A stretch of 64,000 nucleotides of DNA from Patescibacteria group bacterium (lineage in GTDB: Bacteria > Patescibacteriota > WWE3 > UBA101185 > UBA10185). The position numbers and the translations under genes are program-made. A model generated the notes under the pieces. It was given only the letters and a program-made list of their open reading frames with translations, had not been told where the DNA came from and did not search any database. Every line of letters begins with the position of its first letter. The stretch's first letter is position 1. Where the stretch lies: the NCBI GenBank assembly GCA_026004595.1, contig BPJL01000001.1, positions 26,486 to 90,485 of the forward strand, given 5' to 3'. Below are positions 44,932 to 59,115 of the stretch, piece by piece.

Positions 44932-45894
44932 ATGAACATTATATTTCGCGCCGTAATGTACATTTTAATGTTCTTCGTTCTTTGGTTTGGAGCTGGTCTC
45001 ATACTATCGGCCGTAGAAAGAGTGTCCAAGACGCTGAAAATATCTGCATTTACCCTTTCTTTTTTTGTTCTCGGGCTCTTGACTTCTATTCCTGAACTTG
45101 CAGTTGGTGTTACCTCTGTTGTAGAAAATGACCCCCAAATTTTTGTGGGCAATCTTTTGGGAGGTGTTGTTGTAATTTTTTTGCTTATAATTCCGGTGCT
45201 GGCGATACTAGGAAATGGGATAAGTTTAAGCCACAATATGGACCATAAAGGACTTCTCTCTGCAATGGTTGTTTGTGTCGCTCCTGCACTTTTAGTTGCC
45301 GATAAAAGAGTAGGAATCTTTGAGGCCATTCTGATGCTACTTTTATATGCTTCTACTTTATATATTATTCAGCGGAAGCAAAATTTGGTTGAGAAGATAG
45401 AGTCCATACAATACTCGTTGAAGAATGACGGGTCAACACACATTAAGAACGTGTTAAAAATTTTGGTAGGTCTGATTATAGTTTTTTTTGGAAGCGAATA
45501 CATAGTTAGAGAGACCCTATCCTTTTCTAATATGCTTAAAGTGTCCCCTTTTTTAATAAGCATAGTAGTTCTTTCATTGGGAACCAACTTGCCCGAATTT
45601 TTTCTGGCAGTAAGGAGTATAAAACAGCGTAAAAAAGATGTAGCCTTTGGTGACTACATAGGGTCTGCGTCAGCTAACACTCTTCTTTTTGGATTTCTTG
45701 TGTTACTGAATGGGGGGAATGTGACTCTCTCAAACAACTTTTTTCAAAGCCTCATGTTCGTTTTGATAGCTCTGATCTGTTTCTATTTTTTTGCTAGATC
45801 TAAAAACACCGTTTCCAGAAACGAGGGTATAGTTCTGGTATTTATCTATATTTGTTTTCTTGGCTTGGAGGCCCTCGCCGCGTTAAGGGGATAG
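44932..45894 (+). CDS. CaCA-family cation/Ca2+ exchanger (YrbG-like)
   Basis: Two alpha-repeat motifs: GNLLGGVVVIFLLIIPVLAILG, and GTNLPEFFLAVRSI with its GT.LPE signature. Confidence 0.6.
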   Translation: MNIIFRAVMYILMFFVLWFGAGLILSAVERVSKTLKISAFTLSFFVLGLLTSIPELAVGVTSVVENDPQIFVGNLLGGVVVIFLLIIPVLAILGNGISLSHNMDHKGLLSAMVVCVAPALLVADKRVGIFEAILMLLLYASTLYIIQRKQNLVEKIESIQYSLKNDGSTHIKNVLKILVGLIIVFFGSEYIVRETLSFSNMLKVSPFLISIVVLSLGTNLPEFFLAVRSIKQRKKDVAFGDYIGSASANTLLFGFLVLLNGGNVTLSNNFFQSLMFVLIALICFYFFARSKNTVSRNEGIVLVFIYICFLGLEALAALRG

Positions 45895-45901
45895 AATTTC
45901 G

Positions 45902-46204
45902 TCAAGCTTTCTTTTTGTCCAATTTGTCCAATCTTAATATCTTTACCCCAAAATAGACAACAAAAGATATAACCAGAAAGTCGATAAAAACGCTCAAAAA
46001 ACTGCCCCACATCAATTTTGTTTTACCTATTTGCAGATATGCGCCTTGAAGATTTTCAAGGTTGCTGAGTCCCAGGGCCAAAATCGGGCTTATGATATCA
46101 TTTACCAATGAAGCCACCAGTTTTGATACGGCGCCTCCCAGAATAAATCCTACTGCCAGCCCGACTACGCCTTGTTCTCTAATGAAGTTCATAAATCCTT
46201 TCAT
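45902..46204 (-). CDS. mscL: Large-conductance mechanosensitive channel MscL
   Basis: MKGFMNFIREQGVVGLAVGFILGGAVSKLVASLVNDIISPIL is a near-consensus MscL N-terminus. The protein has 100 aa and two TM helices. Confidence 0.8.
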   Translation of the reverse strand: MKGFMNFIREQGVVGLAVGFILGGAVSKLVASLVNDIISPILALGLSNLENLQGAYLQIGKTKLMWGSFLSVFIDFLVISFVVYFGVKILRLDKLDKKKA

Positions 46205-46254
46205 TCAATTCACCTCCTTATATCCCAATAATTATAGGTATAAGCTTATATTAT

Positions 46255-48714
46255 TTAATTTAAGTAAGTTTCACTATCAAACAATCTTCTGACAAATCTG
46301 ATGTTGTAAATAACTTTACAAATCTCAATAAAGAAGAATATTGATATGGACAATAATATTGCAATAATCCAATAGCTAGCACCAAGTGGGTGCAATCCAA
46401 AAAACTGTCTTAGGGAAGGAATTGTAAAAGGAAATATTTGAAGTAACACCCCACCAGCTACCGCTAGAATTAGCCATTTGTTTTCAAACAAATGGCTTTT
46501 CCAAAATGGTTTAGTAAGTATTCTAGCAGAAAATGCATAAGTAAGAGTACTCATGCCGAGTGTTATAAATGTCATAGACCTTGCTATCGTAAGATCGCCG
46601 GTCATTTTATTTATTATTATAAACACACCTAGACATACGAAACCAATTACAAGACTTATAATCCCGATAAAACTAATTATTTGCGAATTGACTAATTTTT
46701 GTTTAGGACTTCTTGGAGGTTCGAACATTACCTCTATTCTTTTAGGATCTATCGTTAGAGATAGGTGGGGGAAGCCATCCGATACTAGATTTATCCATAA
46801 TATTTGAACTGGGGAAATAGGGAGAGGGAATCCAAGAGCAATACTGCCCATCACAATCACGATCCCACTAAAAGCTCCTCCTACTAGATACAGAATTATT
46901 TTTCTAATGTTTTCAAAAATCACCCTACCTTCTTCAATTGCCGCTACTATAGTTGCGAAGTTAGAGTCAAGCAAAACTAAATCAGCTGATTCTTTCGCTA
47001 CATCGGTTGCATCTCCAACCACAATGCCTATATCAGCTTTATGAAGTGCGGGAGCGTCATTAACTCCGTCTCCCATCATGGCAACGATTTCTCCGTTTTT
47101 TTTCAAGGCCTCAACAACAGCCAGTTTTTGATTGGGTGTAGTTCTGGCAAATAATTTTACAGTTTTGACTCTTTTTGATATTTCCTCGTCAGACATATCT
47201 ACAAGCTGATTACCTGTAATAATTTCTTCTTCATTTACCTCAATACCTAATTCTTTTAGAACGAATTGTGATGTCTTAGCGTAATCACCAGTAATTACAG
47301 CAATTCTAATTCCCGCTGTCATAGCTTCGTTTATAGCTTCTTTGACTCCCGGACGGACTGGATCGGTAAAAGCTATAATTCCAACCCACTCAAGACCTTC
47401 TTTAGTATCGGAAATTTCTATTGTTTTTTTATTCAATGGCACTAGCTTTCTGGCGTACCCTATCAACCTTTTACCTTGTTTTGTTAGATTATCAATGTTA
47501 ATAGAAATTTCTTGTTTTTCGTTTTCAGAAAGATTGGATAATTCCAACAATAATTCAGGAGCTCCATTTACAAACATAATGTTATTTTTTGAAGTCCATT
47601 CATGAAGGCTTATAAAAACTCTTTCCTCTGGTGAAAAGGGTATGCTATCTAGACGCTGATGTTCTGATATGAAATCTGTGATTATAGTCCTTCCCCATTC
47701 AAAAGCTGCTATTACAATTGGATCATCAAGGTCATTTGCTAGTAAAACTTGTTGTGCCAATAGATTTTTATCGCCTATGTATTCAACGACTTCCATTTTA
47801 CCTTGGGTTAAAGTGCCAGTTTTATCGACGCATATTATTGTGACGCCCCCCAAGGTTTCTGCGGCTGATAGATTTCTTACTAAGCCTCGGCGTTTTAATA
47901 TCTTTTGCATACCGATTGCAAGAACAACAGTTAAAGCGACAAGTAAGCCCTCAGGTATGCTCGAGACCATTAAAGCGATAGATGTACTGAAGATCTCAAC
48001 AAGACTAAAATTATATGAAATTCCCAGAATAAACACACCGGTTACTAAAAATACAATCAAGATAACAAGTTGCCGACTAAAATATTTTAGCTGTTTTTGA
48101 AGAGGTGTATCTCCTTTTGTGTCTTGTATTTTTTTAGCTATGGTTCCCATTGTGGTTGAAGCTCCAATTCTTTCAACCACCATTAAACCCTGCCCCGACG
48201 ATATAGTGGTTCCCATTAGTACCTCATCATCGTTATTTTTGTTAACAGGAATACTCTCTCCAGTTAATATTGCTTCATCTATGTATAATCTGTTTGCAAA
48301 TAATAGTTTTCCATCAGCTGGAATTTTTTGACCTTGGCTTAAAATTACAGTATCACCAGGCACAAGTTGAGTGGTATCAATAAGCTCTCTTTTACCCTCT
48401 CTTATTACTGTAGCTTGAGCCGTGACATAGTGTTTTAGAGCGTGAAGTGCAGATGAAGCCCTGTTTTCTTGTATATAACCTAAAATTGTATTTATAAAAA
48501 CCGCGATGAAAATGATGACGGCGTCAGAATAGTGCCCTATTGCTATGGTTATAAAAGCAGCAATTAGAAGAATATAAACTAAAGGACTTTTTAATTGTTG
48601 TAGGATAATGAATAATTTGCTTGGAGGAGGTTTTTCTGGCAGAAGGTTAAGGCCATATATTTCTTGCCTCTTTTTTATTTCCTCATAAGATAAACCCTGT
48701 TCGTTTGAAAACAT
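46255..48714 (-). CDS. Cation-transporting P-type ATPase (type II, Ca2+/Mg2+-like)
   Basis: Phosphorylation motif ICVDKTGTLT. Hinge MGDGVNDAPAL. TGES region (ILTGESIPV). Ten TM helices in 819 aa. Confidence 0.85.
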   Translation of the reverse strand: MFSNEQGLSYEEIKKRQEIYGLNLLPEKPPPSKLFIILQQLKSPLVYILLIAAFITIAIGHYSDAVIIFIAVFINTILGYIQENRASSALHALKHYVTAQATVIREGKRELIDTTQLVPGDTVILSQGQKIPADGKLLFANRLYIDEAILTGESIPVNKNNDDEVLMGTTISSGQGLMVVERIGASTTMGTIAKKIQDTKGDTPLQKQLKYFSRQLVILIVFLVTGVFILGISYNFSLVEIFSTSIALMVSSIPEGLLVALTVVLAIGMQKILKRRGLVRNLSAAETLGGVTIICVDKTGTLTQGKMEVVEYIGDKNLLAQQVLLANDLDDPIVIAAFEWGRTIITDFISEHQRLDSIPFSPEERVFISLHEWTSKNNIMFVNGAPELLLELSNLSENEKQEISINIDNLTKQGKRLIGYARKLVPLNKKTIEISDTKEGLEWVGIIAFTDPVRPGVKEAINEAMTAGIRIAVITGDYAKTSQFVLKELGIEVNEEEIITGNQLVDMSDEEISKRVKTVKLFARTTPNQKLAVVEALKKNGEIVAMMGDGVNDAPALHKADIGIVVGDATDVAKESADLVLLDSNFATIVAAIEEGRVIFENIRKIILYLVGGAFSGIVIVMGSIALGFPLPISPVQILWINLVSDGFPHLSLTIDPKRIEVMFEPPRSPKQKLVNSQIISFIGIISLVIGFVCLGVFIIINKMTGDLTIARSMTFITLGMSTLTYAFSARILTKPFWKSHLFENKWLILAVAGGVLLQIFPFTIPSLRQFFGLHPLGASYWIIAILLSISIFFFIEICKVIYNIRFVRRLFDSETYLN

Positions 48715-48803
48715 TTATTTTAGTAAAAACAAAAAATCATATACTTCAAAAATTTTAGCACCGTAAACCAGCTATTTTATTAGGAAGAGGCCATAAAGTG
48801 TTA

Positions 48804-49052
48804 TTAGACTAAAAATACCTCATCGCCTTCCCTGACCTTCTCGTTTACTTTTATGCCTACTTCCTGCCCACCTTTACCTTCTTCAATATTTTGGTGGTTG
48901 AACTGCAATTCCAGCACGTTTTGTTCAAAATCAGTGGTAGAGCCTATTATTCTAATTTTATCGCCTACCTTTATATCATCACTGAGTTTGATTATTCCAA
49001 CTCCAAGCCTATCATAGTAATGAGTGATTGTGCCTATTTTTTTATTATTCAT
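48804..49052 (-). CDS. Small hypothetical beta-barrel protein (82 aa)
   Basis: Convincing ORF with Gly/Val periodicity. No family was recognised. Confidence 0.3.
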   Translation of the reverse strand: MNNKKIGTITHYYDRLGVGIIKLSDDIKVGDKIRIIGSTTDFEQNVLELQFNHQNIEEGKGGQEVGIKVNEKVREGDEVFLV

Positions 49053-49343
49053 CTATTTTATTTCACCCCCTCAAATATGCCGAAATACTTAGGTAATTAT
49101 ACCAAAGGGAAATCTAAGAAATAAAAGATTGTTCAAATATTTTAATAGTTTAAGTGTCAAGCTTACTACTCGTTAAACAATATTATAATCAATAATCCCA
49201 AAATTATTGCCACGACCGGAAAAGGGTTATTTTTCACGAAACGTTTTATCGCTATTAATAATAACGTAAGTGACATGATATTATTTTATACTTTACATGA
49301 AAATATACCACCGGATTTTTATAAAACGCTAACGTGTGGTTTT

Positions 49344-50030
49344 TTACTTTTCACTTTCGAAGAGTCTTAAAATAGGTTTTTCATAAAAGAAAATAATAAA
49401 ATATGCATAAAGCAACCCGTATACTATATCCTCAACAGGCATTGCGTTTATTCTTATCCCCATAGTATATACATAGTTATAAGTAACAATTGGTTTGGAA
49501 GTTAAATAATAGTTGAATAAAAGAGTAAGTAGTATAGTAACTACTGCCATTAACCAAAAACTCATTGTTCTGAGCACAGAGTAATTGTTTCTAGCTTCAA
49601 GTTTAATACTTATTAAAATCAAAACAAATACGCAAAAAGAATAAAACCAGCCTTTTATTGATGAGATTATGCACATTATCGACATAGCTAAGGTACTTAT
49701 TATTATGTAATAACGATTTATTTCTACGGTTTTTTTAACTATTTGTTTGAAATTTACATGTAAGCATAAAAGTGCGTAACCTACTGCTACGAAAAATAAA
49801 AGTTCTTCGAGAGGAACCTTTCCGATATAAATGCCTATAATGTAATCTGTATTGAAAAACCAAAACTTTTGAGTTACAAGACTGTCCCACAAAACAAAAG
49901 GGCCGCCCACGAGTATTATAGATAAAATCGTATTTGTAAGTTTTGGTTTAATAGATCTTTTATATAATGCCATAGATACCGTTGGTAGCAGGATAATAAG
50001 TAGATTGAAAAGTAGGTAATCATAAACCAT
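49344..50030 (-). CDS. Fused lycopene-cyclase-domain membrane protein (CrtYcd/heterodimeric-type cyclase-like)
   Basis: Two internal repeats, each with the acidic membrane motif of lycopene cyclase domain proteins (VPLEELLFF and MPVEDIVYGLLYAYF). About 7 TM helices. It is clustered with crtI, crtB, a UbiA gene and a GGPP-synthase gene. Confidence 0.5.
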   Translation of the reverse strand: MVYDYLLFNLLIILLPTVSMALYKRSIKPKLTNTILSIILVGGPFVLWDSLVTQKFWFFNTDYIIGIYIGKVPLEELLFFVAVGYALLCLHVNFKQIVKKTVEINRYYIIISTLAMSIMCIISSIKGWFYSFCVFVLILISIKLEARNNYSVLRTMSFWLMAVVTILLTLLFNYYLTSKPIVTYNYVYTMGIRINAMPVEDIVYGLLYAYFIIFFYEKPILRLFESEK

Positions 50031-51504
50031 TTTTTGTGAGGAGGTTTGTAACTATTTTTGAGGATAACATAGTTATCGGAACGCCTATTCCCGGATTGGT
50101 ATATTGGCCAACGTAAAATAAATTTTTAACTTTCTTACTTTTATTTTTAGGTCTGAAAATTGCTGTTTGGCCTAAAGTGTGAGCTAGACCTAGTGCGGTC
50201 CCCTTGTAAGCATTGTAGTCTGAAGCGAAATTACTGTGACTGAATATTCTTTTTACGACTACATGGTTGCTGATATCTTCGCCTATTAAATTTTCTAGGT
50301 GTTTGATTATTTTTTCAGCTAAATTATTTCGGATTTCTTCGGTGTCTTGTAGACCGGGAGCAACTGGTACAAGGATCATTAAAGACTCTCCTTCTTCCGG
50401 CGCCATAGATGGGTCAGTTTTGGACGGCATGTGGATATAATAAGAAGGATTAGATGGCCATCTTGGGTTTTTGAAAATGAAATCAAAACTCTCTTTCCAT
50501 GTGTCATTAAAGTATAGATTGTGATGTTCAAGATTATTAATTTTTTTATTAACGCCGAGATAGATGATTAAAGCAGATGGAGACATTGTTCTTTTTCTCC
50601 AATAATTTTCATCGTATGTTTGAAAATCTTTTTCTAATAAATTCATCTCTGCGTATGCATAATCTGCATTCACAACAACATAATCCGCTTTGTAGTCTTT
50701 TTTAAGTGTGCTTACTATGTTGGCTGTTTTTTTATTTTTATCAATGTTTATTTTCTGTACTTCCTCAGAGGTAACAATGGACACTCCCAGATCTTGCGCA
50801 ATTTTGGATAAAGCCTCAACTATTTTGTGCATCCCACCCATGGGGTACCAAATGCCTAGATTAAAATCTGCGTAGTTTATAATCGTGTAAAAGGCTGGAG
50901 TGTTATATGGGGAGCCGCCTAAAAAAACAGTTGCAAACTCAAGAATTTTTTGCAAATCTTCATTATTAAATTGTTTTGAAATAACAGAATGAAAGCTGCC
51001 TGATAAGTTTATGTTCGGTAAAAGATTAAACAGTTTCAGAAATTTTTCAAGTTTGATGTTTTTATAATCCATTAGTATCAGATCTTTCATAGTTATCTCA
51101 TATAATAATTTAGTTCGGTTCAGATAATTTTTTAATTTTTCTCCTGCCCCTCTTTCAGTTTTTTCAAAAGTTTCTAAATTTTTCTCAAGATCGGAATATA
51201 TGGTATAGGTGCGGTTATTATCAAAGAAAACTTTATAATTCACCGGAAGTCTTACGAGATTGTATAAATCCGAAATTTTATAACCGAGGGATTTGAACAC
51301 TTCTTCAAAAACTTCGGGCATCATGTACCAAGAAGGTCCCATATCAAAAACAAATCCTTTATCTTCAAATTTTCTAGCCCGACCACCTAGTATTTCATTT
51401 TTTTCTAATAGTTCGACCTCATACCCTTCTTTAAGAAGTAAAGCAGCTGTTGAAAGGCCTCCTATACCGCCTCCTATAACAATGACCTTGGATTTTATTG
51501 ACAT
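50020..51504 (-). CDS. crtI: Phytoene desaturase family FAD-dependent oxidoreductase (CrtI-like)
   Basis: N-terminal dinucleotide fold VIVIGGGIGGLSTAALLLKEGYEVELLEKNEILGGRA. About 490 aa, the size of CrtI/CrtD-family enzymes. The 3' end overlaps the cyclase-domain gene start by 11 nt. Confidence 0.7.
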   Translation of the reverse strand: MSIKSKVIVIGGGIGGLSTAALLLKEGYEVELLEKNEILGGRARKFEDKGFVFDMGPSWYMMPEVFEEVFKSLGYKISDLYNLVRLPVNYKVFFDNNRTYTIYSDLEKNLETFEKTERGAGEKLKNYLNRTKLLYEITMKDLILMDYKNIKLEKFLKLFNLLPNINLSGSFHSVISKQFNNEDLQKILEFATVFLGGSPYNTPAFYTIINYADFNLGIWYPMGGMHKIVEALSKIAQDLGVSIVTSEEVQKINIDKNKKTANIVSTLKKDYKADYVVVNADYAYAEMNLLEKDFQTYDENYWRKRTMSPSALIIYLGVNKKINNLEHHNLYFNDTWKESFDFIFKNPRWPSNPSYYIHMPSKTDPSMAPEEGESLMILVPVAPGLQDTEEIRNNLAEKIIKHLENLIGEDISNHVVVKRIFSHSNFASDYNAYKGTALGLAHTLGQTAIFRPKNKSKKVKNLFYVGQYTNPGIGVPITMLSSKIVTNLLTKNGL

Positions 51505-51625
51505 AAATATATAATATCACCGTGTTTGTGATTAAGTATATTTAATAAGCTATGTTGTTAGATTTTTTACTCTTTTAAAGAATTTAAAGAGTAAGATATA
51601 TATTAGTTTTCGCAGTAATATTTAT

Positions 51626-52498
51626 ATGAAGGACGCACCAAATTACGAAGTTTTTAAAAAAGGTAGTAGAAATTATTTTTATTCTTCAGTTCTTTTTGAT
51701 CGCAAGACAAGAGATGCTATAACTGATATTTATGCGTTTGTACGTACGGCTGACGATTTTGTAGATGAAATACCCCAAAAGATTGCCGAATACCAAAGGT
51801 TTAAAGGAGATTTTATTAACTTTTACTATAATGGCGAACTAAAATGGTACGCTAATGCTGTTGAGGGAATGATAATAAGAAGATTTGTATATTTGGTAAA
51901 AGAAAAGGGTATAGAGATTTCATGGATAAAAGCATTCTTTGATTCAATGGATATGGATATTGAAAAGAAAGAGTATATGGATATTGATGAGATTATAAAT
52001 TATGTGTATGGGTCTGCTGAAGTTATTGGGCTTATGTTGGCAAAAATCATGGGTTTGTCTAATGATAGTTTTTATTACGCAAAAATGCTTGGGAGATCAA
52101 TGCAGTATGCCAATTTTATCCGAGACTACAACGAAGATATGTTTATAGGTCGTTTATATTTACCCAAAAAAGAAATGATTGAGATGGGTATAGTGTCGGC
52201 CCGCCCACAATCACAAGAGGAGATAAAGAATTTCATAAATTTTTTTAAAAAACAAATCCGGCGTTTTTATGAATGGCAAAAAGAGGCTGAAAAGGGTTTT
52301 ATTTATATACCTAGAAAATATTTTGTGCCAATAAAAACTGCATCAGATATGTATGTTTGGACAATAAGACAGATTGATAAAAACCCTCTTATTGTATTTG
52401 AGAAAAAAATTAAACCATCAGTTTTTAGAATCTTGGCTTATGGAATCAAGAATTTATTGTTTTCTTACTTTAAAATATTAAGTTTAAAAACAAAATAA
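51626..52498 (+). CDS. crtB: Phytoene/squalene synthase family protein (CrtB-like)
   Basis: Asp-rich motifs of trans-isoprenyl diphosphate synthase head-to-head enzymes (VRTADDFVDE ... YANFIRDYNEDMFIGRLYLP). Confidence 0.65.
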   Translation: MKDAPNYEVFKKGSRNYFYSSVLFDRKTRDAITDIYAFVRTADDFVDEIPQKIAEYQRFKGDFINFYYNGELKWYANAVEGMIIRRFVYLVKEKGIEISWIKAFFDSMDMDIEKKEYMDIDEIINYVYGSAEVIGLMLAKIMGLSNDSFYYAKMLGRSMQYANFIRDYNEDMFIGRLYLPKKEMIEMGIVSARPQSQEEIKNFINFFKKQIRRFYEWQKEAEKGFIYIPRKYFVPIKTASDMYVWTIRQIDKNPLIVFEKKIKPSVFRILAYGIKNLLFSYFKILSLKTK

Positions 52499-53291
52499 AA
52501 CCCACGACTGTATTGATAAATGGAAATTTCCAATAAGTTTTATTCAGATCAGGCAGAAATTTTACAATAATCAAAAATGTAATAAACGGGTAGACAAAAA
52601 GTATTAAAGATGAAAAACCTGTATTTAATGTAGCAATTAATGCTGATAATAACCATAAAATTAGGCATAGATATAGAGAGTATTTAAAGCTAAGAAAAAC
52701 GGCAGTTGTCTTAAGACCAGCCTTTTTGTCCGCTTCTATGTCGGGTATGGCTGAGAATAGGTGCATTGAAGATGTCCACAACCAGGCTGCTATAAACACC
52801 CAAATAGGTACCCCCTCATTTTTTATATTGTGGTAGGCGTAAAAACCAGGTAACGCATATAAAATATTTGATAGAGAGTCAATAAAAGGTTTGGCTTTGA
52901 ATCTTAGTGGCGGAGAACTATAAAAATAACTTAGTAAGTAGAAAATTAAAAGCAAAAGTTTTTGATAGATATTTCTTGCATAAAGAAAATACAAAAAGAA
53001 GATAAAAATTGTAATTAATAAATAGGGTTTTAATATTTTTCTCTCTTTTAAAAAGATTTCTTTGGTGCCTTTTTTAGTATTATGTAAATCTGTGTCTTTG
53101 TCGTAATAATCGTTAATACCATATATAAAAAAGTTAGCAGGAAATGAAAAAAACACTAATCCTAAATAAAAGCTTGGGTTTATAAATATGTCCGGCCCAC
53201 CCACAGCCCAGCCCAAAATATAAGGTCCTAATACGTAAAACCAAAATCTCGGCCTCGATATTTTTAGAATTAAACTAAGTCTTTCTTTCAT
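52470..53291 (-). CDS. UbiA-family prenyltransferase (candidate lycopene elongase/CrtEb-LyeJ-like; MenA/DGGGP-synthase-like not excluded)
   Basis: Eight or nine TM helices and the UbiA Asp-rich motif NDYYDKDTD. It is convergent with crtB. Confidence 0.6.
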   Translation of the reverse strand: MKERLSLILKISRPRFWFYVLGPYILGWAVGGPDIFINPSFYLGLVFFSFPANFFIYGINDYYDKDTDLHNTKKGTKEIFLKERKILKPYLLITIFIFFLYFLYARNIYQKLLLLIFYLLSYFYSSPPLRFKAKPFIDSLSNILYALPGFYAYHNIKNEGVPIWVFIAAWLWTSSMHLFSAIPDIEADKKAGLKTTAVFLSFKYSLYLCLILWLLSALIATLNTGFSSLILFVYPFITFLIIVKFLPDLNKTYWKFPFINTVVGFILFLNLIF

Positions 53292-53318
53292 GCTGTGGTG
53301 CTATGGTAAGATTCTACC

Positions 53319-54392
53319 ATGAATGAAAGTAATTTTAGGCACCGCGGTAAGTTAGCACGGGATTTTATTTACTCGTCGAGCCTTAGAATTAATGTTTTAC
53401 TTAATGATTTAATTGATTCAAAAATCAAAGAATTAGGCAGTATAGACAGTACCTTTGAAAAAATGCTAATTCATTTTAAAGAACTTTCGCAAGGAGGAAA
53501 AAAATTTAGAGGAGGTTTAGTTAAGTTAGGATATTTGGCGTCAGGAGGTAGTGCTACAGAAGAAATATATTACCCCGGCGCCGCGATAGAAATTTTTCAA
53601 ACAGGTATTCTGGTGCACGATGATATATCTGATAAGGCAAGTAGAAGAAGGGGAGTGCCTACGATACACGAAGTATTTGAAAGCGAGTATGATTCTTCTT
53701 ATGGTTTTGATATGGCAATGTATGCAGGTGATTTTTCATTTTATTTTTCTTATGAAGTTTTGTTAAACAGTAAATTTCCTAAAGATTTAATTATTAAAGC
53801 GTGTGATGTTTACTCAAAGTATACTCAGAGTATTGTGGCGGGACAGGTGATGGATGTGTCAGCTTCTAAGATGAAGATGGATGTGGACGATGTATTTATA
53901 AAAAAAGTTTATAAGTATAAGACATCGCAATACACAGGGGTTCTACCTTTGCTTTTAGGTTATGAACTAGCCGGTAGTTCAGATGCGGATGTAAGAGAGG
54001 CTTTAATAAAGTACGGTGAGTGTTTGGGTTTAATTTATCAGATACAAGATGATATTTTAGATATATTTGGGGATGAGATAAACACAGGAAAAATTCTAGG
54101 TAGAGATATTACGGAGGGAAAAAATACTTTACTTTCTAAATATGCGCTTACAAGCGGGGATCACGCACATGTGTCGGAGCTTAAAGAATTGTTTGGCAAA
54201 AATTTGACTGAGACGGATATATTAAAAGCAAGAGAAATTATGGTACAAACAGGTTCTTTAGAAAAGGTTAAAAAAATTGTGGATGAAAATAGGGAATTGG
54301 CTTTAAAACAGATTAATAACATTACGAGTATATCTGAAATTTCCTCAATATTAGAATCGTTAATTGATTACGTTTATTACAGGAATCTGTAA
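53319..54392 (+). CDS. Polyprenyl diphosphate synthase (GGPP synthase-like, CrtE/IdsA)
   Basis: FARM LVHDDISDKASRRRG and SARM YQIQDDILDIFGD, the hallmark motifs of trans-prenyltransferases. Confidence 0.7.
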   Translation: MNESNFRHRGKLARDFIYSSSLRINVLLNDLIDSKIKELGSIDSTFEKMLIHFKELSQGGKKFRGGLVKLGYLASGGSATEEIYYPGAAIEIFQTGILVHDDISDKASRRRGVPTIHEVFESEYDSSYGFDMAMYAGDFSFYFSYEVLLNSKFPKDLIIKACDVYSKYTQSIVAGQVMDVSASKMKMDVDDVFIKKVYKYKTSQYTGVLPLLLGYELAGSSDADVREALIKYGECLGLIYQIQDDILDIFGDEINTGKILGRDITEGKNTLLSKYALTSGDHAHVSELKELFGKNLTETDILKAREIMVQTGSLEKVKKIVDENRELALKQINNITSISEISSILESLIDYVYYRNL

Positions 54393-54441
54393 TATTCTTA
54401 CACAGAATTTTTCCATCTATTACATCTATTACAGAAGCTGT

Positions 54442-55080
54442 TTATTTAATGCCGAATAAGTTTCTAAAAAAACTCTGAATTTTAGTCATAACCATCTTTG
54501 TTACACTCAATCTCTCATTTTGTTGCAAATTGTCTACAACCGGCATATTTGTTTCAAACTTCTCAATTAACATATCGTTTTCTGTTGATTCTTGGCGGTC
54601 TGTTGTGTTTTCTATATTTTCATCTGATCCAAGTTCTGGTGATTGTGGTTGTTGTTCGGATACCATGCTAGAAGGATCAGAAGGCACTTCCACATTTTGT
54701 TTTAGTGTGGGCTTCGGTTGGGTGGGTTGTGATGTGTTGGTTGGTTGTGAAGTATCACCGTTTCTATAAACATAGACTTGCGAAGGAAGGGGATTAACTC
54801 TGCTTTTTTGCCCAATTAAATTTCCATTACCATCGTAAGTCTTTGTTGTAATATACACACCATCTATTTTATAGGTTTTTGTAACCACTACAGTGTTGCC
54901 ATCTTTAGAAAATGTCTCAGTATAAGTAGTTCCTTCAGCAATACGCTGTTGTTTTTCAGAATTTACAATGCCCGTCTGGGACTCGCTAAATACTAGGATT
55001 CCCGTAGTACCTAGAGTTAATAAACCTAGCAAGAACAAAACTGGAACATATACATATAAAGTATAGTTTGTAGGTTTCAT
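54442..55080 (-). CDS. Hypothetical secreted protein (signal peptide/N-terminal TM, T/Q/P-rich linker)
   Basis: N-terminal hydrophobic helix. A low-complexity TSQPTQPKPT linker. No catalytic motif was recognised. Confidence 0.35.
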   Translation of the reverse strand: MKPTNYTLYVYVPVLFLLGLLTLGTTGILVFSESQTGIVNSEKQQRIAEGTTYTETFSKDGNTVVVTKTYKIDGVYITTKTYDGNGNLIGQKSRVNPLPSQVYVYRNGDTSQPTNTSQPTQPKPTLKQNVEVPSDPSSMVSEQQPQSPELGSDENIENTTDRQESTENDMLIEKFETNMPVVDNLQQNERLSVTKMVMTKIQSFFRNLFGIK

Positions 55081-55248
55081 ATATACTTTTATGTTAATGC
55101 AACTTGCTCAATATGTCTACTTTTAATATTGTATAGCAATCGCTTGTGTCTTAAGCAGCATTTTTAAATATATTTAAAAAACTAAAAAAGCAAATTTTAA
55201 ATATTTTTTCTGGGTCTGTTATTGTAATGTAATGCGGGGGTGTGGTTT

Positions 55249-55797
55249 CTACAGGGAGTGTTCTTTGTCGTTTATCAGCTGCGTGTACTGTTCAATAAGG
55301 TAATCTATCTTTTCTTGCGTATAGCTAGGATTCTCAGCAAATCCTCGTACTTCGTATCCTCCATCCCCGCCCAATTTATAAACCCACACCCAAAATACCT
55401 TGTCAGGTTTATCGGGGAATAGTATGTTAACTTGTTTTCCTCCTCCGGGAAAGTTTCCAATATCTATCACAACAAACTTTCCTTTGTAATAGTCTTTAGA
55501 AAAACTACTAAGTCCTGTCTTTCTACCCATTGTGAATCCCTCTTCTACCAGACTTTCAGGAACACTTTCTGGCTCGTTTAAGTAGTTATTTAGGGTAGTT
55601 CTGATTTGTAAAACAAAAGGGTCTTTATAAGAGTCATAATAGCTTTGAAGTTCTTGGTCAACAGGTGTTTGTGAGGGCTGTTGTGGCGTTGTCTCATTTT
55701 GTTTGGTCGTCGAATTGGGCCTTGATGTTAAGAGTGTTGTTCCGATAACAAACATGGTTATCAGTATTAGGATGATTAGTATTTTCCTACGTTTCAT
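55249..55797 (-). CDS. Hypothetical N-terminally anchored secreted protein
   Basis: MKRRKILIILILITMFVIGTTLLTS anchor, a Q/T/P-rich linker, then a ~130-aa globular domain. Confidence 0.35.
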   Translation of the reverse strand: MKRRKILIILILITMFVIGTTLLTSRPNSTTKQNETTPQQPSQTPVDQELQSYYDSYKDPFVLQIRTTLNNYLNEPESVPESLVEEGFTMGRKTGLSSFSKDYYKGKFVVIDIGNFPGGGKQVNILFPDKPDKVFWVWVYKLGGDGGYEVRGFAENPSYTQEKIDYLIEQYTQLINDKEHSL

Positions 55798-56158
55798 ATA
55801 TTTTCTTTATAGAATATTAACTCGTTTTTTAAGCAAAGAAAACAAAGTTGAAAATTTAGGTAAACAAACTACTTTTGTTTCCGAGGATTGCTAAGAAGTT
55901 TTTTATGTTTTGGCTATTTATTGTTTGATATTTTGAAATCAGAGGTATAACAGTGAAGCTCTAAATTATAGTATTGTGTGAATTTTTTAAAAGTTGTTGC
56001 TAGTCCAAAATCTCGAAATAGTCGCCTCATAGTATGTACGAGCTTGTCCAGTTACATCTGGCTCGAACGATGGTATGATTTCCGAAGAATAGACTGGGTA
56101 AAAGAGCTGGAATATCCTGAGTTTACAAAAAAAGAAGTGGATAGATTTTTAAACTTTA

Positions 56159-57073
56159 TCACTTGAGTTTTTGTTGAGATAAATCCAAACTTCTAGAATC
56201 ATCAAAATCGATACTCCCAATCTGGTCTTTAAGATGATTGTAATTTCTAGCAGGATATAACATTGCTAAAAACTGCAGATCGTTGTTAATATTAGATGCC
56301 TTCTGCCTTTCATCAAAACCGCCAATAAATACAAGCTGTGTCCCTCTCTTTTTAGTCACAAACTCTTTCCTAACACAGAGAAAGAGAATTTTATTTGAGA
56401 GTTGATGATTTGGAGGAGCTTGTAACGCAAAACACTTATTAACGAAGCCTTCTTTTTTGATAAATGTGTAAACCTTAGTAAATCTGTCACTTTGGGGATG
56501 TATGGTATTGGAGTCATACCACCAGCCAGTGATTTTTATCGAATCATCAGTGCCCTGTCCCAAATCAAAATCCAAGTCTATTTCCTTTTCACTATAACCT
56601 TTAGCATTAGTTTTAACCTCAAATCCTTCTACCCCTTTTATTTGTATAGAAAATAGATGACCAATAGCTTTATCCAACGGGTCGGATGTCTTTTTTATTT
56701 TAGTATAAATCTTCTGATCCTGGGAAAAATGGACATTCCCATCCGACCAATGAGTATATTTCACTTTATGCGATGTAACTTTTCCTCCTGGAACAAGGCT
56801 TAATTTGTCTACTTTCGGTGTATTTTTAGGGAATGTCATTAATGACAGCAATCCCTTGCTATTTTTATGATATGGAAAAGAAACAAAAATAGCGGATTGT
56901 TTTTTGTCTTTTGTCTGGTGGAATACAATTTTGCAGATTTTATATAATACGCCATCTTTTTTGACAGAAATCGTAAATTTCTCTGCTTGATGAGTAAATA
57001 TTCTCCCACGATGACATCTTTTATATTTTTTTCCGCTTCCGCAAGGACACGGATCGTTTCTGCCAATTTTCAT
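56159..57073 (-). CDS. SEC-C motif ([13 protein letters not shown]) metal-binding domain protein, function unknown
   Basis: N-terminal [17 protein letters not shown] is the SecA-C-terminal-like zinc motif. The remaining ~280 aa are uncharacterised. The gene lies upstream of, and divergent from, the RM locus. Confidence 0.5.
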
Positions 57074-57124
57074 CGTTTCAAGTATACCAATTTGCTGTTG
57101 GTTTTAGTATACTTTAGTTGAGGT

Positions 57125-57328
57125 ATGACCAAACCAAAAAACGAGTTACCAAAATTGTTAACTATCAGGCAGGCTGCCGAAATCTTAAATGTTCATGTTG
57201 AGACACTGAGACGCTGGGACAAAGGTGGAAAACTAAAAGCTATCATCGTAAACGAGCGGGGCGACAGGCGCTATGATCCCAAAGATATTGAGACTATACT
57301 AAAAAATAAAAATAAACATGGTAACTAA
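57125..57328 (+). CDS. MerR/excisionase-family helix-turn-helix DNA-binding protein (possible controller of the RM operon)
   Basis: LLTIRQAAEILNVHVETLRRWDKGGKLKAIIVNERGDRRYDPKDI is an Xis/MerR-type winged HTH. The stop overlaps the start of the RM A-subunit gene by 11 nt. Confidence 0.5.
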   Translation: MTKPKNELPKLLTIRQAAEILNVHVETLRRWDKGGKLKAIIVNERGDRRYDPKDIETILKNKNKHGN

Positions 57329-59114
57329 CAATAACGATAAAAATTCAATCTTTCTAAAAAACATTGAGCGAGGTAAACAGGAGGGATTGATTACTCTCAC
57401 CGACGATAACGCCCGTATTACTTACCACTGCTCCAGAGACTACTCAACCTCATTCAAAAACCCAGAAGAAACAGTGAGAGCTTCGTATTTTGTTGAGCTT
57501 GTTCTCGACTACCAATACCCCAAAAACCAAATTGATATTGAGGTAACTGTCCCCAGAAGAACACCAGAAGACCGAGCAGACATAGTTATTTACGAAGATG
57601 ACGACCTCAAAACGCCTTATCTTATTGTTGAGTGCAAAAAAGACGGGGTAACTGACGCCGAGTTTAAGCAGGCTATAGAGCAAGCCTTTGGTAACGCCAA
57701 CAGCCTAAGAGCCAAGTTTGCCATCGTGGTAGCTGGCACAACCAAAACCGCCTTTGATATTGCGGGCTTTAAGCCAAGCGAGCGAGAGAAAAATGTTATT
57801 GCCGACATACCTGTTAAATACGGCAGAACACCCAAATACAGGTTTATTAAAGGCGAAGAAGATAAAGAACTCAAAACCGTTTCCAAAGACGAGTTAATAA
57901 CCGCTCTTGGTAAAAGCCACGATACTGTTTGGCAAGGGGGCAAGCTAGCCCCTACTACCGCCTTTGATGAAGTATCCAAGCTCTTATTTTGTAAATTAAG
58001 GGACGAGAAGCTAACTAAACGAGGCGAGCCTTACAAATTCCAAATCGGCACACACGAAACAGCCGACGAAGTATTTAAGCGGGTCAACTCTATTTACCTT
58101 AAAGCCAAACAGGAAGATAGCGAGGTTTTTAAGGAAGACATTAGGCTTGACCCCAAAGTAGTTTACAGCGTCGTAGAGCATTTACAAGAGTTAGCCATCA
58201 ACAAAATTGACTTAGACACCAAAGGGATTGCCTTTGAGCGGTTTATGGAAGACTTTTTCAAGGGCAAGATGGGGCAATTCTTTACCCCCAGAGAAATCAT
58301 CAGATTTTGCGTTGAGATGATGAACCCTAAGCGAGGCGATTTAGTCCTAGACCCTGCTTGCGGTAGCGGGGGATTTTTACTTAATACCCTAGATAAGGTA
58401 AGAGATTATGCCGAGAAAAATTATGAGGGATTAGAAGCGTGGGAATACTGGCATAGCTTTGCTCAAAACAACCTTTACGGCATTGAGATAAACGACCAAA
58501 TAGCAAGAGTTTGCAAGATGAACATGATTATCCACGATGACGGACACACCAATATCATCTCAACCGACAGCTTGAGAGATTTTAGCGAGATAAACAACCT
58601 GCACCCCAAGTTTGGTAAAGACAAGTTTGATATTATCCTAACTAATCCCCCTTTTGGAGCAACGGTTAAATCAACCGAAAAAAACTATCTTGACCATTAC
58701 GAACTAGGCAAAGGCAAGAAAAACCAAAAAACAGAAATCCTGTTTATTGAGCGGTGCGTCAATTTTGTCAAACCCAAAACGGGCAGGATTGCCATAGTCT
58801 TACCCGATGGCATTTTGTCTAACTCATCTTTGCAATATGTAAGAGATTACATAATGGAAAAGTGCCAAATAGAGGCGATTGTATCTTTACCTCAGTTTGC
58901 TTTTGCGCACTTTGGGGCAGGTGTTAAATCCTCTTTGGTTTTCCTGCGACGCAAAGGCGATAACGAAAAATTAGGCAACTATCCTATCTTTATGGCTATT
59001 GCCGACCACATAGGCTATGACGCAACTGGCAGAAAAGACCCTAAGAATGACCTAGTGGAAATCAAAAAAGAATACGAAAAATTTGTTAAAAATCCAACGG
59101 GCTACAAAGGCTAA
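57318..59114 (+). CDS. Restriction-modification A subunit: N-terminal PD-(D/E)xK (HSDR_N-like) nuclease domain fused to gamma-class N6-adenine DNA methyltransferase (BcgI-A-like, Type IIB)
   Basis: The N-terminal ~190 aa have a DIVIY...IVECKK nuclease core (D..E-x-K). The C-terminal ~400 aa have HsdM-type motifs (LDPACGSGGFLL for motif I, ILTNPPFG for motif IV). No helicase/translocase (HsdR) gene is present anywhere in the locus. Confidence 0.6.
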   Translation: MVTNNNDKNSIFLKNIERGKQEGLITLTDDNARITYHCSRDYSTSFKNPEETVRASYFVELVLDYQYPKNQIDIEVTVPRRTPEDRADIVIYEDDDLKTPYLIVECKKDGVTDAEFKQAIEQAFGNANSLRAKFAIVVAGTTKTAFDIAGFKPSEREKNVIADIPVKYGRTPKYRFIKGEEDKELKTVSKDELITALGKSHDTVWQGGKLAPTTAFDEVSKLLFCKLRDEKLTKRGEPYKFQIGTHETADEVFKRVNSIYLKAKQEDSEVFKEDIRLDPKVVYSVVEHLQELAINKIDLDTKGIAFERFMEDFFKGKMGQFFTPREIIRFCVEMMNPKRGDLVLDPACGSGGFLLNTLDKVRDYAEKNYEGLEAWEYWHSFAQNNLYGIEINDQIARVCKMNMIIHDDGHTNIISTDSLRDFSEINNLHPKFGKDKFDIILTNPPFGATVKSTEKNYLDHYELGKGKKNQKTEILFIERCVNFVKPKTGRIAIVLPDGILSNSSLQYVRDYIMEKCQIEAIVSLPQFAFAHFGAGVKSSLVFLRRKGDNEKLGNYPIFMAIADHIGYDATGRKDPKNDLVEIKKEYEKFVKNPTGYKG

Positions 59115-59115
59115 T

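What the first reader, a model, noticed from the sequence alone, without database searches (positions are those of the whole stretch)
49344..54392. Compact carotenoid-type isoprenoid cluster (GGPP synthase, UbiA prenyltransferase, crtB, crtI, fused lycopene-cyclase domain) in an otherwise biosynthetically minimal genome
Five adjacent genes carry the diagnostic motifs of polyprenyl synthase (DDxxD x2), a UbiA prenyltransferase (NDxxDxxxD), phytoene synthase, phytoene desaturase (FAD fold) and a duplicated lycopene-cyclase domain (PxEE/PxED). The combination of a cyclase with a UbiA-family enzyme resembles C50 carotenoid (decaprenoxanthin/bacterioruberin-type) pathways (crtEb/lyeJ), or beta-carotene production as a retinal precursor for a rhodopsin encoded elsewhere. 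The rest of the window looks like a reduced, host-dependent bacterium with almost no biosynthesis, so a complete pigment pathway is unexpected. It points to light exposure, and possibly rhodopsin-based energy capture or photoprotection.
Basis: partly seen in the sequence, partly recalled or inferred. Interest (0 to 1): 0.6.

Follow-up and report, generated by a model that had tools for sequence, protein, structure and literature searches.

The report
Mosaic carotenoid gene cluster, CPR bacterium
A tiny host-dependent (Patescibacteria) bacterium carries five intact pigment genes, a bacterioruberin-type (LyeJ) carotenoid pathway plus a lycopene cyclase, on a low-GC segment that looks recently transferred; similar pathways are already known in this group, so this is an unusual variant and not a surprise.

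Summary
Five adjacent intact ORFs at 49344-54392 encode a two-domain lycopene-cyclase protein, a CrtI-family desaturase, an SQS/PSY synthase, a UbiA prenyltransferase and a trans-prenyl-diphosphate synthase, all with their catalytic motifs.

The UbiA enzyme is LyeJ-type (bacterioruberin elongase/hydratase), not CrtEb-type. It passes the NCBIfam model that a Haloarcula ortholog of LyeJ hits. Characterised CrtEb and CrtE2 hit a different model and are only 23-27% identical to it.

The desaturase sits 4 bits under the cut-off of the CrtI/CrtD bifunctional model.

The closest relatives of the cyclase lie in crtI-crtB-ggpps-cyc operons that have no elongase, so it is most likely a C40 lycopene cyclase.

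LyeJ-type operons (crtI-crtB-ggpps-lyeJ, often with cruF) are widespread in CPR, DPANN, methanogens and Asgard archaea, and they have been published for Patescibacteria. A carotenoid pathway in a CPR genome is therefore not unexpected.

What is unusual:
- LyeJ and a cyclase occur together (0 of about 160 related loci), with no CruF in the window.
- The genes have mosaic origins and alternating orientation.
- They sit in a low-GC3 segment that is about 15-fold less diverged between two strains than the flanking core genes.

No rhodopsin, Blh or CruF is present in the window.

The parts
49344..50030 (-). Fused two-domain lycopene-cyclase protein (CrtYc/Yd-type, 228 aa). Its start overlaps the end of crtI by 11 nt.
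   Evidence: PF18916 in two stretches and TIGR03462. PxEE and PxED motifs are invariant. There are 895 representatives with E<=1e-3, the best at 38% identity. The closest relatives sit in crtI-crtB-ggpps-cyc operons without an elongase.
50020..51504 (-). CrtI-family phytoene desaturase, possibly bifunctional CrtI/CrtD (494 aa).
   Evidence: TIGR02734 scores 458 bits (cut-off 238). NF058655 CrtID scores 636 bits against a cut-off of 640. It forms a clade with the CrtI of cyclase-type operons at 96% NJ bootstrap.
51568..51593 (.). Imperfect palindrome TACTCTTTTAAA-GAA-TTTAAAGAGTA in the 121-nt divergent crtI/crtB intergenic region. It is a candidate operator; function untested.
   Evidence: Sequence read. 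The pattern is unique in the window and appeared in 0 of 100 shuffles.
51626..52498 (+). SQS/PSY-family synthase, inferred to be phytoene synthase CrtB (290 aa). Its 3' end overlaps the 3' end of lyeJ by 29 nt (convergent).
   Evidence: PF00494 at 7.2e-44. No NCBIfam equivalog is passed (HpnD 121, CrtB 84). It is 42-45% identical to the CrtB of LyeJ-type operons and 32% to that of cyclase-type operons. DDFVD and DYNED motifs are read from the translation.
52470..53291 (-). LyeJ-type UbiA prenyltransferase (lycopene elongase/1,2-hydratase family, 273 aa).
   Evidence: NF009516 scores 276 bits (cut-off 205). The Haloarcula LyeJ ortholog hits the same model at 459 bits. CrtEb and CrtE2 hit NF009608 instead at 449-490 bits. 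An NJ split separates it from CrtEb-type enzymes at 100% bootstrap.
53319..54392 (+). Short-chain trans-prenyl-diphosphate synthase, inferred to be a GGPP synthase (357 aa). It is divergent from lyeJ with a 27-nt spacer.
   Evidence: PF00348 at 1.3e-49. FARM is DDISD and SARM is DDILD, with no aromatic residue at -4/-5. It is only about 27-31% identical to the cluster GGPPS of related operons. No NCBIfam equivalog is passed.
45502..56064 (.). Tract of low divergence between strains that carries the cluster. It overlaps the low-GC3 island (P-type ATPase 46255-48714, an 82-aa ORF, the five carotenoid genes and a 212-aa ORF).
   Evidence: GC3 is 0.27-0.30 from 46255 to 55080, against about 0.40 elsewhere. 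Against the JGI strain there are 16 mismatches here and 119 in 40.0-45.5 kb. Homology ends at 56064.

Best explanation
This is a functional, horizontally assembled carotenoid pathway in a Patescibacteria genome.

Inferred chemistry:
1. The prenyl synthase supplies GGPP.
2. The SQS/PSY enzyme condenses two GGPP to phytoene.
3. The CrtI-family desaturase makes lycopene, and may also carry out the 3,4-desaturation that the closely related haloarchaeal CrtI/CrtD performs.
4. Lycopene is then a branch point, as in haloarchaea. The LyeJ-type UbiA enzyme adds a C5 unit at C-2 and water at C-1 of an acyclic end. This gives C45/C50 hydroxylated bacterioruberin-precursor pigments. With no CruF in the window, the end product would be bisanhydrobacterioruberin, or its tetrahydro form if the desaturase lacks CrtD activity.
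5. In parallel, the fused CrtYc/Yd-type cyclase closes psi-ends to give gamma- or beta-carotene. A mixed product (one ring, one elongated end) is possible.

The pigments would sit in the membrane. The likely role is membrane reinforcement and/or photo-oxidative protection in a cell that probably cannot make its own lipids.

Shown here: gene integrity, family placement of each enzyme, mosaic ancestry and the compositional/divergence island.
Inferred: every catalytic step, the chain length, the products and the physiological role.
For: - All five ORFs are intact and carry their catalytic motifs.
- UbiA passes NF009516 (276 bits, cut-off 205). That model scores 459 for the ortholog in Haloarcula amylolytica of the characterised Ha. 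japonica LyeJ, and 296-346 for the CPR and Methanobacterium cluster enzymes.
- Characterised C. glutamicum CrtEb and M. luteus CrtE2 fail NF009516 (126-129 bits) and pass NF009608 (449-490 bits), which the window protein fails (105 bits).
- The window UbiA is 37-49% identical to LyeJ-type proteins and 23-27% to CrtEb-type. The split has 100% bootstrap.
- The desaturase scores 636 on the CrtID model built around Ha. japonica C0507 (PMC11946383).
- Relatives form a conserved crtI-crtB-(ggpps)-lyeJ operon in nearly all of the 80 GTDB loci. CruF is adjacent in 48 of them.
- The nearest cyclase relatives (34-39% identity) lie in crtI-crtB-(ggpps)-cyc operons with no elongase. None of 80 cyclase loci has a LyeJ-type UbiA.
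- The locus is conserved in at least 5 independent assemblies, with only 5 nucleotide differences across the five genes.
- The haloarchaeal precedent for a lycopene branch point (CrtY versus LyeJ) is described in PMC11946383.
Against: - No enzyme activity was tested.
- The desaturase is 4 bits below the CrtID cut-off. It also groups with the CrtI of cyclase-only operons, whose members need only phytoene desaturase activity. 3,4-desaturation is therefore uncertain.
- The SQS/PSY protein passes no phytoene-synthase equivalog, and its best NCBIfam hit is HpnD, below cut-off.
- The prenyl synthase is not orthologous to the cluster GGPPS of related operons (about 27-31% identity), and its product length cannot be read from the sequence.
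- No C40 cyclase of proven function was available as a reference.
- IPP/DMAPP supply, CruF and Blh could not be checked outside the window.
- The genes lie on alternating strands with tiny spacers, and no promoter signal exceeds chance. Co-expression is therefore assumed, not shown.
Confidence: 0.6

Rival explanations
1. The main product is a hybrid monocyclic C45 carotenoid. The cyclase closes one end of lycopene (gamma-carotene), and LyeJ, with or without the desaturase, elongates and hydrates the other end. This would be analogous to myxol/deinoxanthin logic, with LyeJ in place of CruF.
For: Cyclase and LyeJ are encoded side by side in one compact cluster here, and in none of about 160 related loci. 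Many homologous cyclases work in clusters with CruF plus a second CrtD-like desaturase, the layout known for pathways that cyclise one end and modify the other (the pathway assignment rests on my own knowledge). crtI and cyc overlap by 11 nt, which suggests tight co-expression.
Against: Nothing shows that LyeJ accepts a monocyclic substrate or that the cyclase stops after one ring. In haloarchaea the same two enzyme types simply compete for lycopene (PMC11946383).
Confidence: 0.2
2. The cyclase branch exists to make beta-carotene as a retinal precursor for a rhodopsin encoded elsewhere in the genome. That would make this CPR bacterium self-sufficient for its chromophore.
For: A complete crtE/B/I/Y-type enzyme set is present. 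Some CPR have proton-pumping rhodopsins but lack retinal synthesis (PMC9296517), so a need exists in the group. The closest cyclase-type operons sit next to a photolyase, which links them to light.
Against: No rhodopsin or Blh/Brp was found in the 64-kb window, in the 10 kb to its left, or in any of about 170 related loci. The rest of the roughly 0.77-Mb genome could not be searched.
Confidence: 0.12
3. This is a cyclic C50 pathway of the actinobacterial kind (decaprenoxanthin, sarcinaxanthin or C.p.450). The UbiA enzyme acts as a CrtEb-like elongase and the cyclase-domain protein as a C50 cyclase.
For: An elongase clustered with a lycopene-cyclase-domain protein is the hallmark of those clusters (PMC3598387, PMC6393565). 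The N and C halves of the window cyclase align to CrtYe/LbtA and to CrtYf/LbtB respectively, with PxEE and PxED conserved.
Against: The UbiA protein fails the model that CrtEb and CrtE2 pass (105 bits, cut-off 217) and passes the LyeJ model. It is only 23-27% identical to CrtEb, CrtE2 and LbtC, and the split has 100% bootstrap. The characterised C50 cyclases in PMC6393565 are separate subunits of about 113-149 aa that score only 21-37 bits on the fused-cyclase family profile, against 219 for the window protein. The nearest cyclase relatives work without any elongase.
Confidence: 0.08
4. The cluster is not a carotenoid pathway. It would be a squalene/hopanoid, quinone or ether-lipid prenylation set, or a decaying relic of transfer.
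For: The SQS/PSY protein's best NCBIfam hits are HpnD and HpnC, though both are below cut-off. The same operon type occurs in strict anaerobes, where pigments are unexpected.
Against: HpnE, MenA, UbiA and DGGGPS models score 50 bits or less, against 458-636 (CrtI models) and 276 (LyeJ model). A lycopene-cyclase domain has no role in those pathways. All ORFs are intact and nearly invariant across assemblies.
Confidence: 0.03

Closest known systems
Haloarchaeal bacterioruberin pathway (Haloarcula japonica crtI/crtD c0507 - lyeJ c0506 - cruF c0505, with CrtY elsewhere for beta-carotene/retinal)
   Same: The same enzyme families are present: a LyeJ-type UbiA in the same NCBIfam equivalog, a CrtI/CrtD-type desaturase, and a lycopene-cyclase-domain protein able to compete for lycopene (PMC11946383).
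   Different: No CruF occurs in the window. The cyclase is inside the cluster, not at a distant locus. CrtB and a prenyl synthase are also clustered. Identity to haloarchaeal LyeJ is only 37-39%. The desaturase scores 636 bits, against 764 for Haloarcula. The host is a bacterium.
crtI-crtB-ggpps-lyeJ(-cruF) operons of CPR, DPANN and other archaea (e.g. Roizmanbacteria CP065004.1; Lake Baikal Patescibacteria, PMC9948471)
   Same: The LyeJ (up to 51% identity) and CrtB (42-45% identity) proteins are closest to these operons, and the host group is the same.
   Different: Those operons are co-directional, often carry CruF (48 of 80) and never a cyclase (0 of 80). Their GGPPS has a DDxxG second motif and is only about 27-31% identical to the window enzyme. 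Here the genes alternate in strand, and the CrtI belongs to another clade.
crtI-crtB-ggpps-cyc operons of low-GC archaea (e.g. metagenome locus L086, with Pus10 and 28% GC) and related contigs L089, L109, L169, L172
   Same: These are the closest relatives of the window's CrtI (52.6% identity; clade at 96% bootstrap) and cyclase (34-39% identity). They share the low GC of the window island.
   Different: They have no LyeJ. Their CrtB is a different clade (32% identity; the window protein joins that clade in 0% of bootstraps). In L086-L089, L109 and L126 a photolyase is adjacent, which the window lacks.
Actinobacterial cyclic C50 clusters (C. glutamicum crtE-crtB-crtI-crtYe-crtYf-crtEb; M. luteus crtE2/crtYg/crtYh; Dietzia lbtA/lbtBC)
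   Same: They share the gene-family inventory: a prenyl synthase, CrtB, CrtI, a UbiA-family elongase and lycopene-cyclase domains.
   Different: The elongase is a different subfamily (NF009608 versus NF009516; 23-27% identity). Their cyclases are separate small subunits that are only distantly related.

Membership tests
LyeJ-type lycopene elongase/1,2-hydratase (UbiA superfamily) | UbiA fold with both Asp-rich motifs | tested here: met
   PF01040 at 5.6e-21. N60, D61, D64, D68 and D184, D188 are invariant in A1.
LyeJ-type lycopene elongase/1,2-hydratase (UbiA superfamily) | Scores above the curated cut-off of the model that the haloarchaeal LyeJ ortholog hits, and not of the CrtEb model | tested here: met
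   Window: NF009516 276 bits (cut-off 205) and NF009608 105 bits (cut-off 217). Haloarcula LyeJ ortholog: NF009516 459 bits. C. glutamicum CrtEb and M. luteus CrtE2: NF009608 490 and 449 bits, NF009516 129 and 126 bits.
LyeJ-type lycopene elongase/1,2-hydratase (UbiA superfamily) | Groups with LyeJ and apart from CrtEb-type elongases in a tree | tested here: met
   In the NJ tree the actinobacterial elongases are split off with 100% bootstrap, and the window protein never joins them (0%). Only NJ was used, not ML.
LyeJ-type lycopene elongase/1,2-hydratase (UbiA superfamily) | Genomic partnership with a CrtD-type desaturase and CruF | tested here: inconclusive
   A CrtI/CrtD-type gene is in the cluster. 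No CruF is in the 64-kb window. The rest of the genome is unread. CruF is distant from lyeJ in one published Saccharibacteria genome (PMC9948471).
LyeJ-type lycopene elongase/1,2-hydratase (UbiA superfamily) | Catalyses C5 addition at C-2 plus hydration at C-1 of lycopene | not testable with these tools
   This needs expression in a lycopene-producing host.
Bifunctional phytoene desaturase/3,4-desaturase (CrtI/CrtD, NF058655) | Score at or above the curated equivalog cut-off | tested here: not met
   636.0 bits against a cut-off of 640. The match is full length (model positions 1-477 of 478). The CrtI-family model TIGR02734 is passed at 458 bits against a cut-off of 238.
Bifunctional phytoene desaturase/3,4-desaturase (CrtI/CrtD, NF058655) | Phylogenetic position among LyeJ-associated desaturases | tested here: not met
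   It groups at 96% NJ bootstrap with the CrtI of cyclase-only operons (L086, L089, L109, L169, L172). L086's CrtI also falls below cut-off at 613 bits.
CrtYc/Yd-type (heterodimeric-family) lycopene cyclase, fused form | Two lycopene-cyclase (CarR) domains carrying PxEE and PxE(D/E) motifs | tested here: met
   PF18916 and TIGR03462 each match in two stretches. P73, E75, E76 and P198, E200, D201 are invariant.
CrtYc/Yd-type (heterodimeric-family) lycopene cyclase, fused form | Works on C40 lycopene, shown by relatives that sit in pathways without an elongase | tested here: met
   The closest relatives lie in crtI-crtB-(ggpps)-cyc operons. None of 80 cyclase loci has a LyeJ-type UbiA; four loci have only weak 29-36-bit UbiA hits. 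This is contextual evidence, not biochemical.
Phytoene synthase CrtB | SQS/PSY fold with two DxxxD motifs | tested here: met
   PF00494 at 7.2e-44. DDFVD and DYNED are read from the translation.
Phytoene synthase CrtB | Passes a curated CrtB equivalog model | tested here: not met
   The CrtB models score 65-85 bits against cut-offs of 480-550. The best hit is HpnD at 121 bits against a cut-off of 279. The C40 assignment rests on the conserved crtI-crtB pairing.
GGPP synthase (CrtE/IdsA) | trans-IPPS fold with FARM and SARM, and a C20 product | tested here: inconclusive
   PF00348 at 1.3e-49, with DDISD and DDILD motifs. The GGPP_syn model scores 130 bits against a cut-off of 500. Chain length cannot be read from the sequence.
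Actinobacterial cyclic C50 pathway (CrtEb + CrtYe/Yf) | CrtEb-subfamily elongase | tested here: not met
   NF009608 scores 105 bits against a cut-off of 217. Identity to CrtEb, CrtE2 and LbtC is 23-27%.
Actinobacterial cyclic C50 pathway (CrtEb + CrtYe/Yf) | Two separate small cyclase subunits | tested here: not met
   The window protein is a single fused 228-aa polypeptide. The reference subunits score 21-37 bits on the fused-family profile.
Retinal/rhodopsin system | Rhodopsin and carotene 15,15'-dioxygenase (Blh/Brp) in the genome | tested here: inconclusive
   None is found in the window or the left 10 kb.

The most novel reading that the evidence does not exclude
The cluster is a natural 'mix-and-match' pathway, built by fusing a DPANN-type crtI-cyc unit with a CPR-type crtB/lyeJ unit. 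It would make a carotenoid not yet described: a monocyclic C45 pigment with one beta-type ring and one 1-hydroxy-2-isopentenyl psi-end. Alternatively it would supply both a C50 membrane rivet and beta-carotene (a retinal precursor) in an ultra-small symbiont. That would be the first CPR bacterium able to make its own rhodopsin chromophore precursor.
Probability: 0.2. Interest if true: 0.6.

Novelty: new variant of a known kind. Interest (0 to 1): 0.4.

Why it matters
- CPR bacteria are thought to depend on hosts for lipids and most metabolites, so any complete membrane-lipid-type pathway they keep is informative about what they cannot borrow.
- LyeJ-type C50 carotenoids span and stiffen membranes. 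Their wide and largely unremarked distribution in CPR, DPANN, methanogens and Asgard archaea suggests a structural role that goes beyond photoprotection.
- This locus adds a cyclase. That makes beta-carotene synthesis by a CPR bacterium conceivable, which bears on the open question of where CPR rhodopsins get their retinal.
- The mosaic ancestry, together with a low-GC tract that is nearly identical between strains, is a clean example of recent gene flow involving CPR bacteria and low-GC archaea.
- None of this changes how carotenoid enzymes are understood, so the value is ecological and evolutionary, not mechanistic.

Tried and rejected
- Promoter and terminator consensus scans over 48.7-55.3 kb found 29 promoter-like sites against 29.5 expected. 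They were uninformative.
- A repeat search for island borders (45.5-57.4 kb) gave only short, chance-level repeats, and no att-like direct repeats. No integrase family appeared among the Pfam hits in the window. The nearest tRNA is about 7 kb from the island.
- tblastn against plasmids to obtain annotated references gave five haloarchaeal 'prenyltransferase' hits for UbiA and none for the cyclase.
- Scans of viral contigs found no relatives of LyeJ or of the cyclase, so there is no evidence for a phage vehicle.
- A literature search for the sample and run accessions found nothing, so the habitat is unknown.
- Exact-sequence look-ups of the window's UbiA and YceG proteins failed, presumably because the indexed strains differ from the window strain (one residue in UbiA). 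The right flank could therefore not be extended.
Its sensitivity is limited.
It worked with 11 sequences.
- MenA, UbiA, DGGGPS, chlorophyll-synthase and HpnE readings were considered and rejected on NCBIfam scores.
- Mis-binning or a chimeric assembly was considered and rejected on contiguity with dnaG and rpoD in six contigs.

Full report
**1. The observation**

From left to right they are:
- 49344-50030(-): a 228-aa protein with two lycopene-cyclase domains
- 50020-51504(-): a 494-aa CrtI-family flavoprotein
- 51626-52498(+): a 290-aa SQS/PSY synthase
- 52470-53291(-): a 273-aa UbiA prenyltransferase
- 53319-54392(+): a 357-aa trans-prenyl-diphosphate synthase

Pfam E-values run from 1e-21 to 1e-50. 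The genes are tightly packed. crtI and cyc overlap by 11 nt. crtB and the UbiA gene converge with a 29-nt overlap. The two divergent junctions are 121 and 27 nt long.

**2. The host**

- NCBI names the identical UbiA protein 'MAG: prenyltransferase [Patescibacteria group bacterium]', on a 171-kb contig.
- Pfam scans of every other ORF of 120 aa or more show typical CPR content: tRNA synthetases, TsaD, SmpB next to a tmRNA, T4SS-pilin-like proteins, two giant ORFs (1267 and 1272 aa) with no Pfam hit, transporters, DNA repair genes and a type I R-M system. There is no other biosynthetic pathway, and no rhodopsin, Blh, CruF or idi.
- The same locus, contiguous with dnaG and rpoD, is present in a 768-kb JGI contig and four Logan assemblies. 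It is therefore not a binning or assembly artefact.
- dnaA lies about 2-3.4 kb to the left of the window start.

**3. Which UbiA enzyme**

The window protein passes NCBIfam NF009516 (276 bits, cut-off 205). All quinone, chlorophyll and ether-lipid prenyltransferase models score 31 bits or less.

I calibrated the uninformatively named models in two ways:
- The ortholog in Haloarcula amylolytica of the characterised Ha. japonica LyeJ scores 459 bits on NF009516.
- I translated experimentally characterised C5-elongase genes from the supplement of PMC6393565. C. glutamicum CrtEb and M. luteus CrtE2 score 490 and 449 bits on a different model, NF009608. They fail NF009516 at 129 and 126 bits.

The window protein fails NF009608 (105 bits against a cut-off of 217). 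In an NJ tree the four actinobacterial elongases are split from all LyeJ-type proteins with 100% bootstrap. The window protein is 37-49% identical to LyeJ-type sequences and 23-27% identical to CrtEb-type sequences.

**4. The desaturase**

- It scores 458 bits on the CrtI-family model and 636 on NF058655, 'bifunctional phytoene desaturase/3,4-desaturase'. That is 4 bits short of the 640 cut-off.
- NF058655 appears to correspond to Ha. japonica C0507, which knock-out and complementation experiments showed to act as both CrtI and CrtD (PMC11946383).
- The LyeJ-associated desaturases of Haloarcula, Magasanikbacteria and Methanobacterium score 764, 738 and 698 on it.

**5. How common is this in CPR?**

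A scan of one genome per GTDB species with the UbiA alignment returned 80 loci.
- Nearly all carry a co-directional crtI-crtB-(ggpps)-lyeJ operon.
- Hosts include seven CPR lineages, Woesearchaeota, Methanobacterium, Methanolobus, Methanomassiliicoccales, Bathyarchaeia, Asgard archaea, Armatimonadota and haloarchaea.
- CruF (PF04240, confirmed) is adjacent in 48 of 80 loci.
- lyeJ, crtD and cruF in Patescibacteria were reported in 2023, with a proposed role in membrane adaptation in cold, dark water (PMC9948471).

**6. What is unusual here**

None of the 80 LyeJ loci has a lycopene-cyclase-domain gene within 10 kb. The window has no CruF.

The cyclase is divergent. There are 895 representatives at E<=1e-3, but the best is only 38% identical. 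A metagenome scan with a cyclase alignment and two exact look-ups gave these results:
- Its nearest relatives (34-39% identity) sit in crtI-crtB-(ggpps)-cyc operons.
- None of 80 cyclase loci carries a LyeJ-type UbiA.
- One of the nearest loci, L086, belongs to a 28%-GC archaeon that encodes Pus10 with the archaeal THUMP domain.

Because its relatives work without an elongase, the cyclase is most likely a C40 lycopene cyclase. The characterised C50 cyclase subunits (CrtYe/Yf, CrtYg/Yh, LbtA/LbtB) are separate proteins of 113-149 aa. They score only 21-37 bits on the fused-family profile, against 219 for the window protein.

**7. Mosaic origin**

- The window CrtI groups with the CrtI of five cyclase-type operons at 96% NJ bootstrap.
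- The window CrtB is excluded from that group (0%). It is 42-45% identical to LyeJ-operon CrtB and 32% identical to cyclase-operon CrtB.
- The LyeJ is closest (51%) to a Roizmanbacteria-type operon with the layout photolyase | crtI-crtB-ggpps-lyeJ-cruF.
- The prenyl synthase is only about 27-31% identical to every cluster GGPPS. It keeps a canonical DDxxD second motif where the others have DDxxG.
- Gene orientation alternates, instead of forming one operon.

**8. Evidence of recent transfer**

- From the P-type ATPase gene (46255) to the 212-aa ORF (55080), GC3 is 0.27-0.30, except for one 82-aa ORF at 0.36. Elsewhere it is about 0.40.
- Against the JGI strain there are 119 mismatches in 40.0-45.5 kb (about 2.2%) but only 16 in 45.5-56.06 kb (about 0.15%). 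The switch lies inside the Na/Ca-exchanger gene.
- All homology ends at 56064. Beyond it the window has a SEC-C protein and a type I R-M system, while the other strain has DUF1189 and sufCBD.
- The five carotenoid genes differ at only 5 nucleotides in total. That is too few for a dN/dS estimate, but it shows that all the ORFs are intact in both strains.
- No integrase family among the window's Pfam hits, no bordering repeats and no viral relatives were found.

**9. Mechanism**

The steps below are inferred from family membership and the haloarchaeal precedent. None is shown.
1. The prenyl synthase makes GGPP, CrtB makes phytoene, and CrtI makes lycopene.
2. Lycopene is then shared between two enzymes. 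LyeJ adds C5 at C-2 and OH at C-1, giving C45/C50 bacterioruberin precursors. The end product would be BABR, or TH-BABR if the desaturase lacks CrtD activity, because no CruF is at hand. The cyclase gives gamma- or beta-carotene.
3. A hybrid monocyclic C45 product is possible, and it is the most novel outcome the evidence allows.

The physiological role is open.
- Membrane reinforcement is favoured by the operon's presence in strict anaerobes and in bathypelagic CPR.
- Photoprotection is favoured by the photolyase gene adjacent to the closest relatives of both the cyclase-type and the LyeJ-type clusters, though not to this one.
- A retinal supply role cannot be tested without the rest of the genome.

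**10. Verdict**

It overstates the surprise, and the rhodopsin link has no support. The locus is a new variant of a known kind of cluster, of moderate interest for CPR membrane biology and cross-domain gene flow.

Noticed in passing
window 45502-56064 versus JGI contig Ga0246236_1000002 (L001): Divergence between the two strains drops about 15-fold (2.2% to 0.15%) inside the Na/Ca-exchanger gene and stays low up to the point where homology ends. The tract overlaps a low-GC3 island that also holds a P-type cation ATPase. This looks like a recently transferred or recombined segment of about 10.5 kb.
   Followed up: partly
window 56065-61800: This is a strain-variable region directly to the right of the island. 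The window has a SEC-C-motif protein (56159-57073), type I R-M genes hsdM (57318-59114) and hsdS (59083-60483), and a 427-aa ORF. The JGI strain instead has DUF1189, an HTH regulator and sufCBD.
   Followed up: partly
GTDB loci L018, L019, L022, L030, L034, L035, L037, L043, L052, L062, L073, L081 and others: Complete crtI(D)-crtB-lyeJ(+cruF) bacterioruberin-type operons occur in strict anaerobes: Methanobacterium including isolates, Methanolobus, Methanomassiliicoccales, Bathyarchaeia, and Thor-, Hermod- and Promethearchaeota. One comparative study treated CruF as Halobacteria-specific (PMC9258230). A carotenoid, or another product, in methanogens would deserve its own look.
   Followed up: partly
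L086-L089, L109, L126 (cyclase-type); L015, L173, L174 (LyeJ-type): A DNA photolyase gene lies directly beside the carotenoid operon in the closest relatives of both cluster types. It is absent from the window.
   Followed up: partly
cluster GGPPS of L006-L016, L024, L026, L042, L050, L054, L057, L086, L089, L109, L137: The prenyl synthases embedded in the related operons have a degenerate second Asp-rich motif (DDxxG in place of DDxxD). The window enzyme keeps DDILD.
   Followed up: no
window 51568-51593: An imperfect 11/12-nt palindrome (TACTCTTTTAAA-GAA-TTTAAAGAGTA) lies between the divergent crtI and crtB genes. It is unique in the window and could be a regulator binding site.
   Followed up: partly
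representative proteins P0291, P0292, P0322, P0335, P0355, P0365, P0369, P0370, P0372: About 720-800-aa homologues fuse the two-domain cyclase to a C-terminal FAD/NAD-binding oxidoreductase that is only distantly related to CrtI.
   Followed up: no
window 63872-63982 (-): A LOOT RNA (Rfam RF03000, 65.9 bits against a gathering score of 46.4) lies at the right edge of the window, next to yceG.
   Followed up: no
window 15758-19561 (-) and 21001-24819 (-): Two giant ORFs (1267 and 1272 aa) with no Pfam hit lie near two T4SS-pilin-like genes (12993-13931 and 14609-15136).
   Followed up: no
window 24855-25778: smpB is immediately followed by the tmRNA gene, whose tag peptide is ADRDAFVGVPAMAAVAA.
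   Followed up: no
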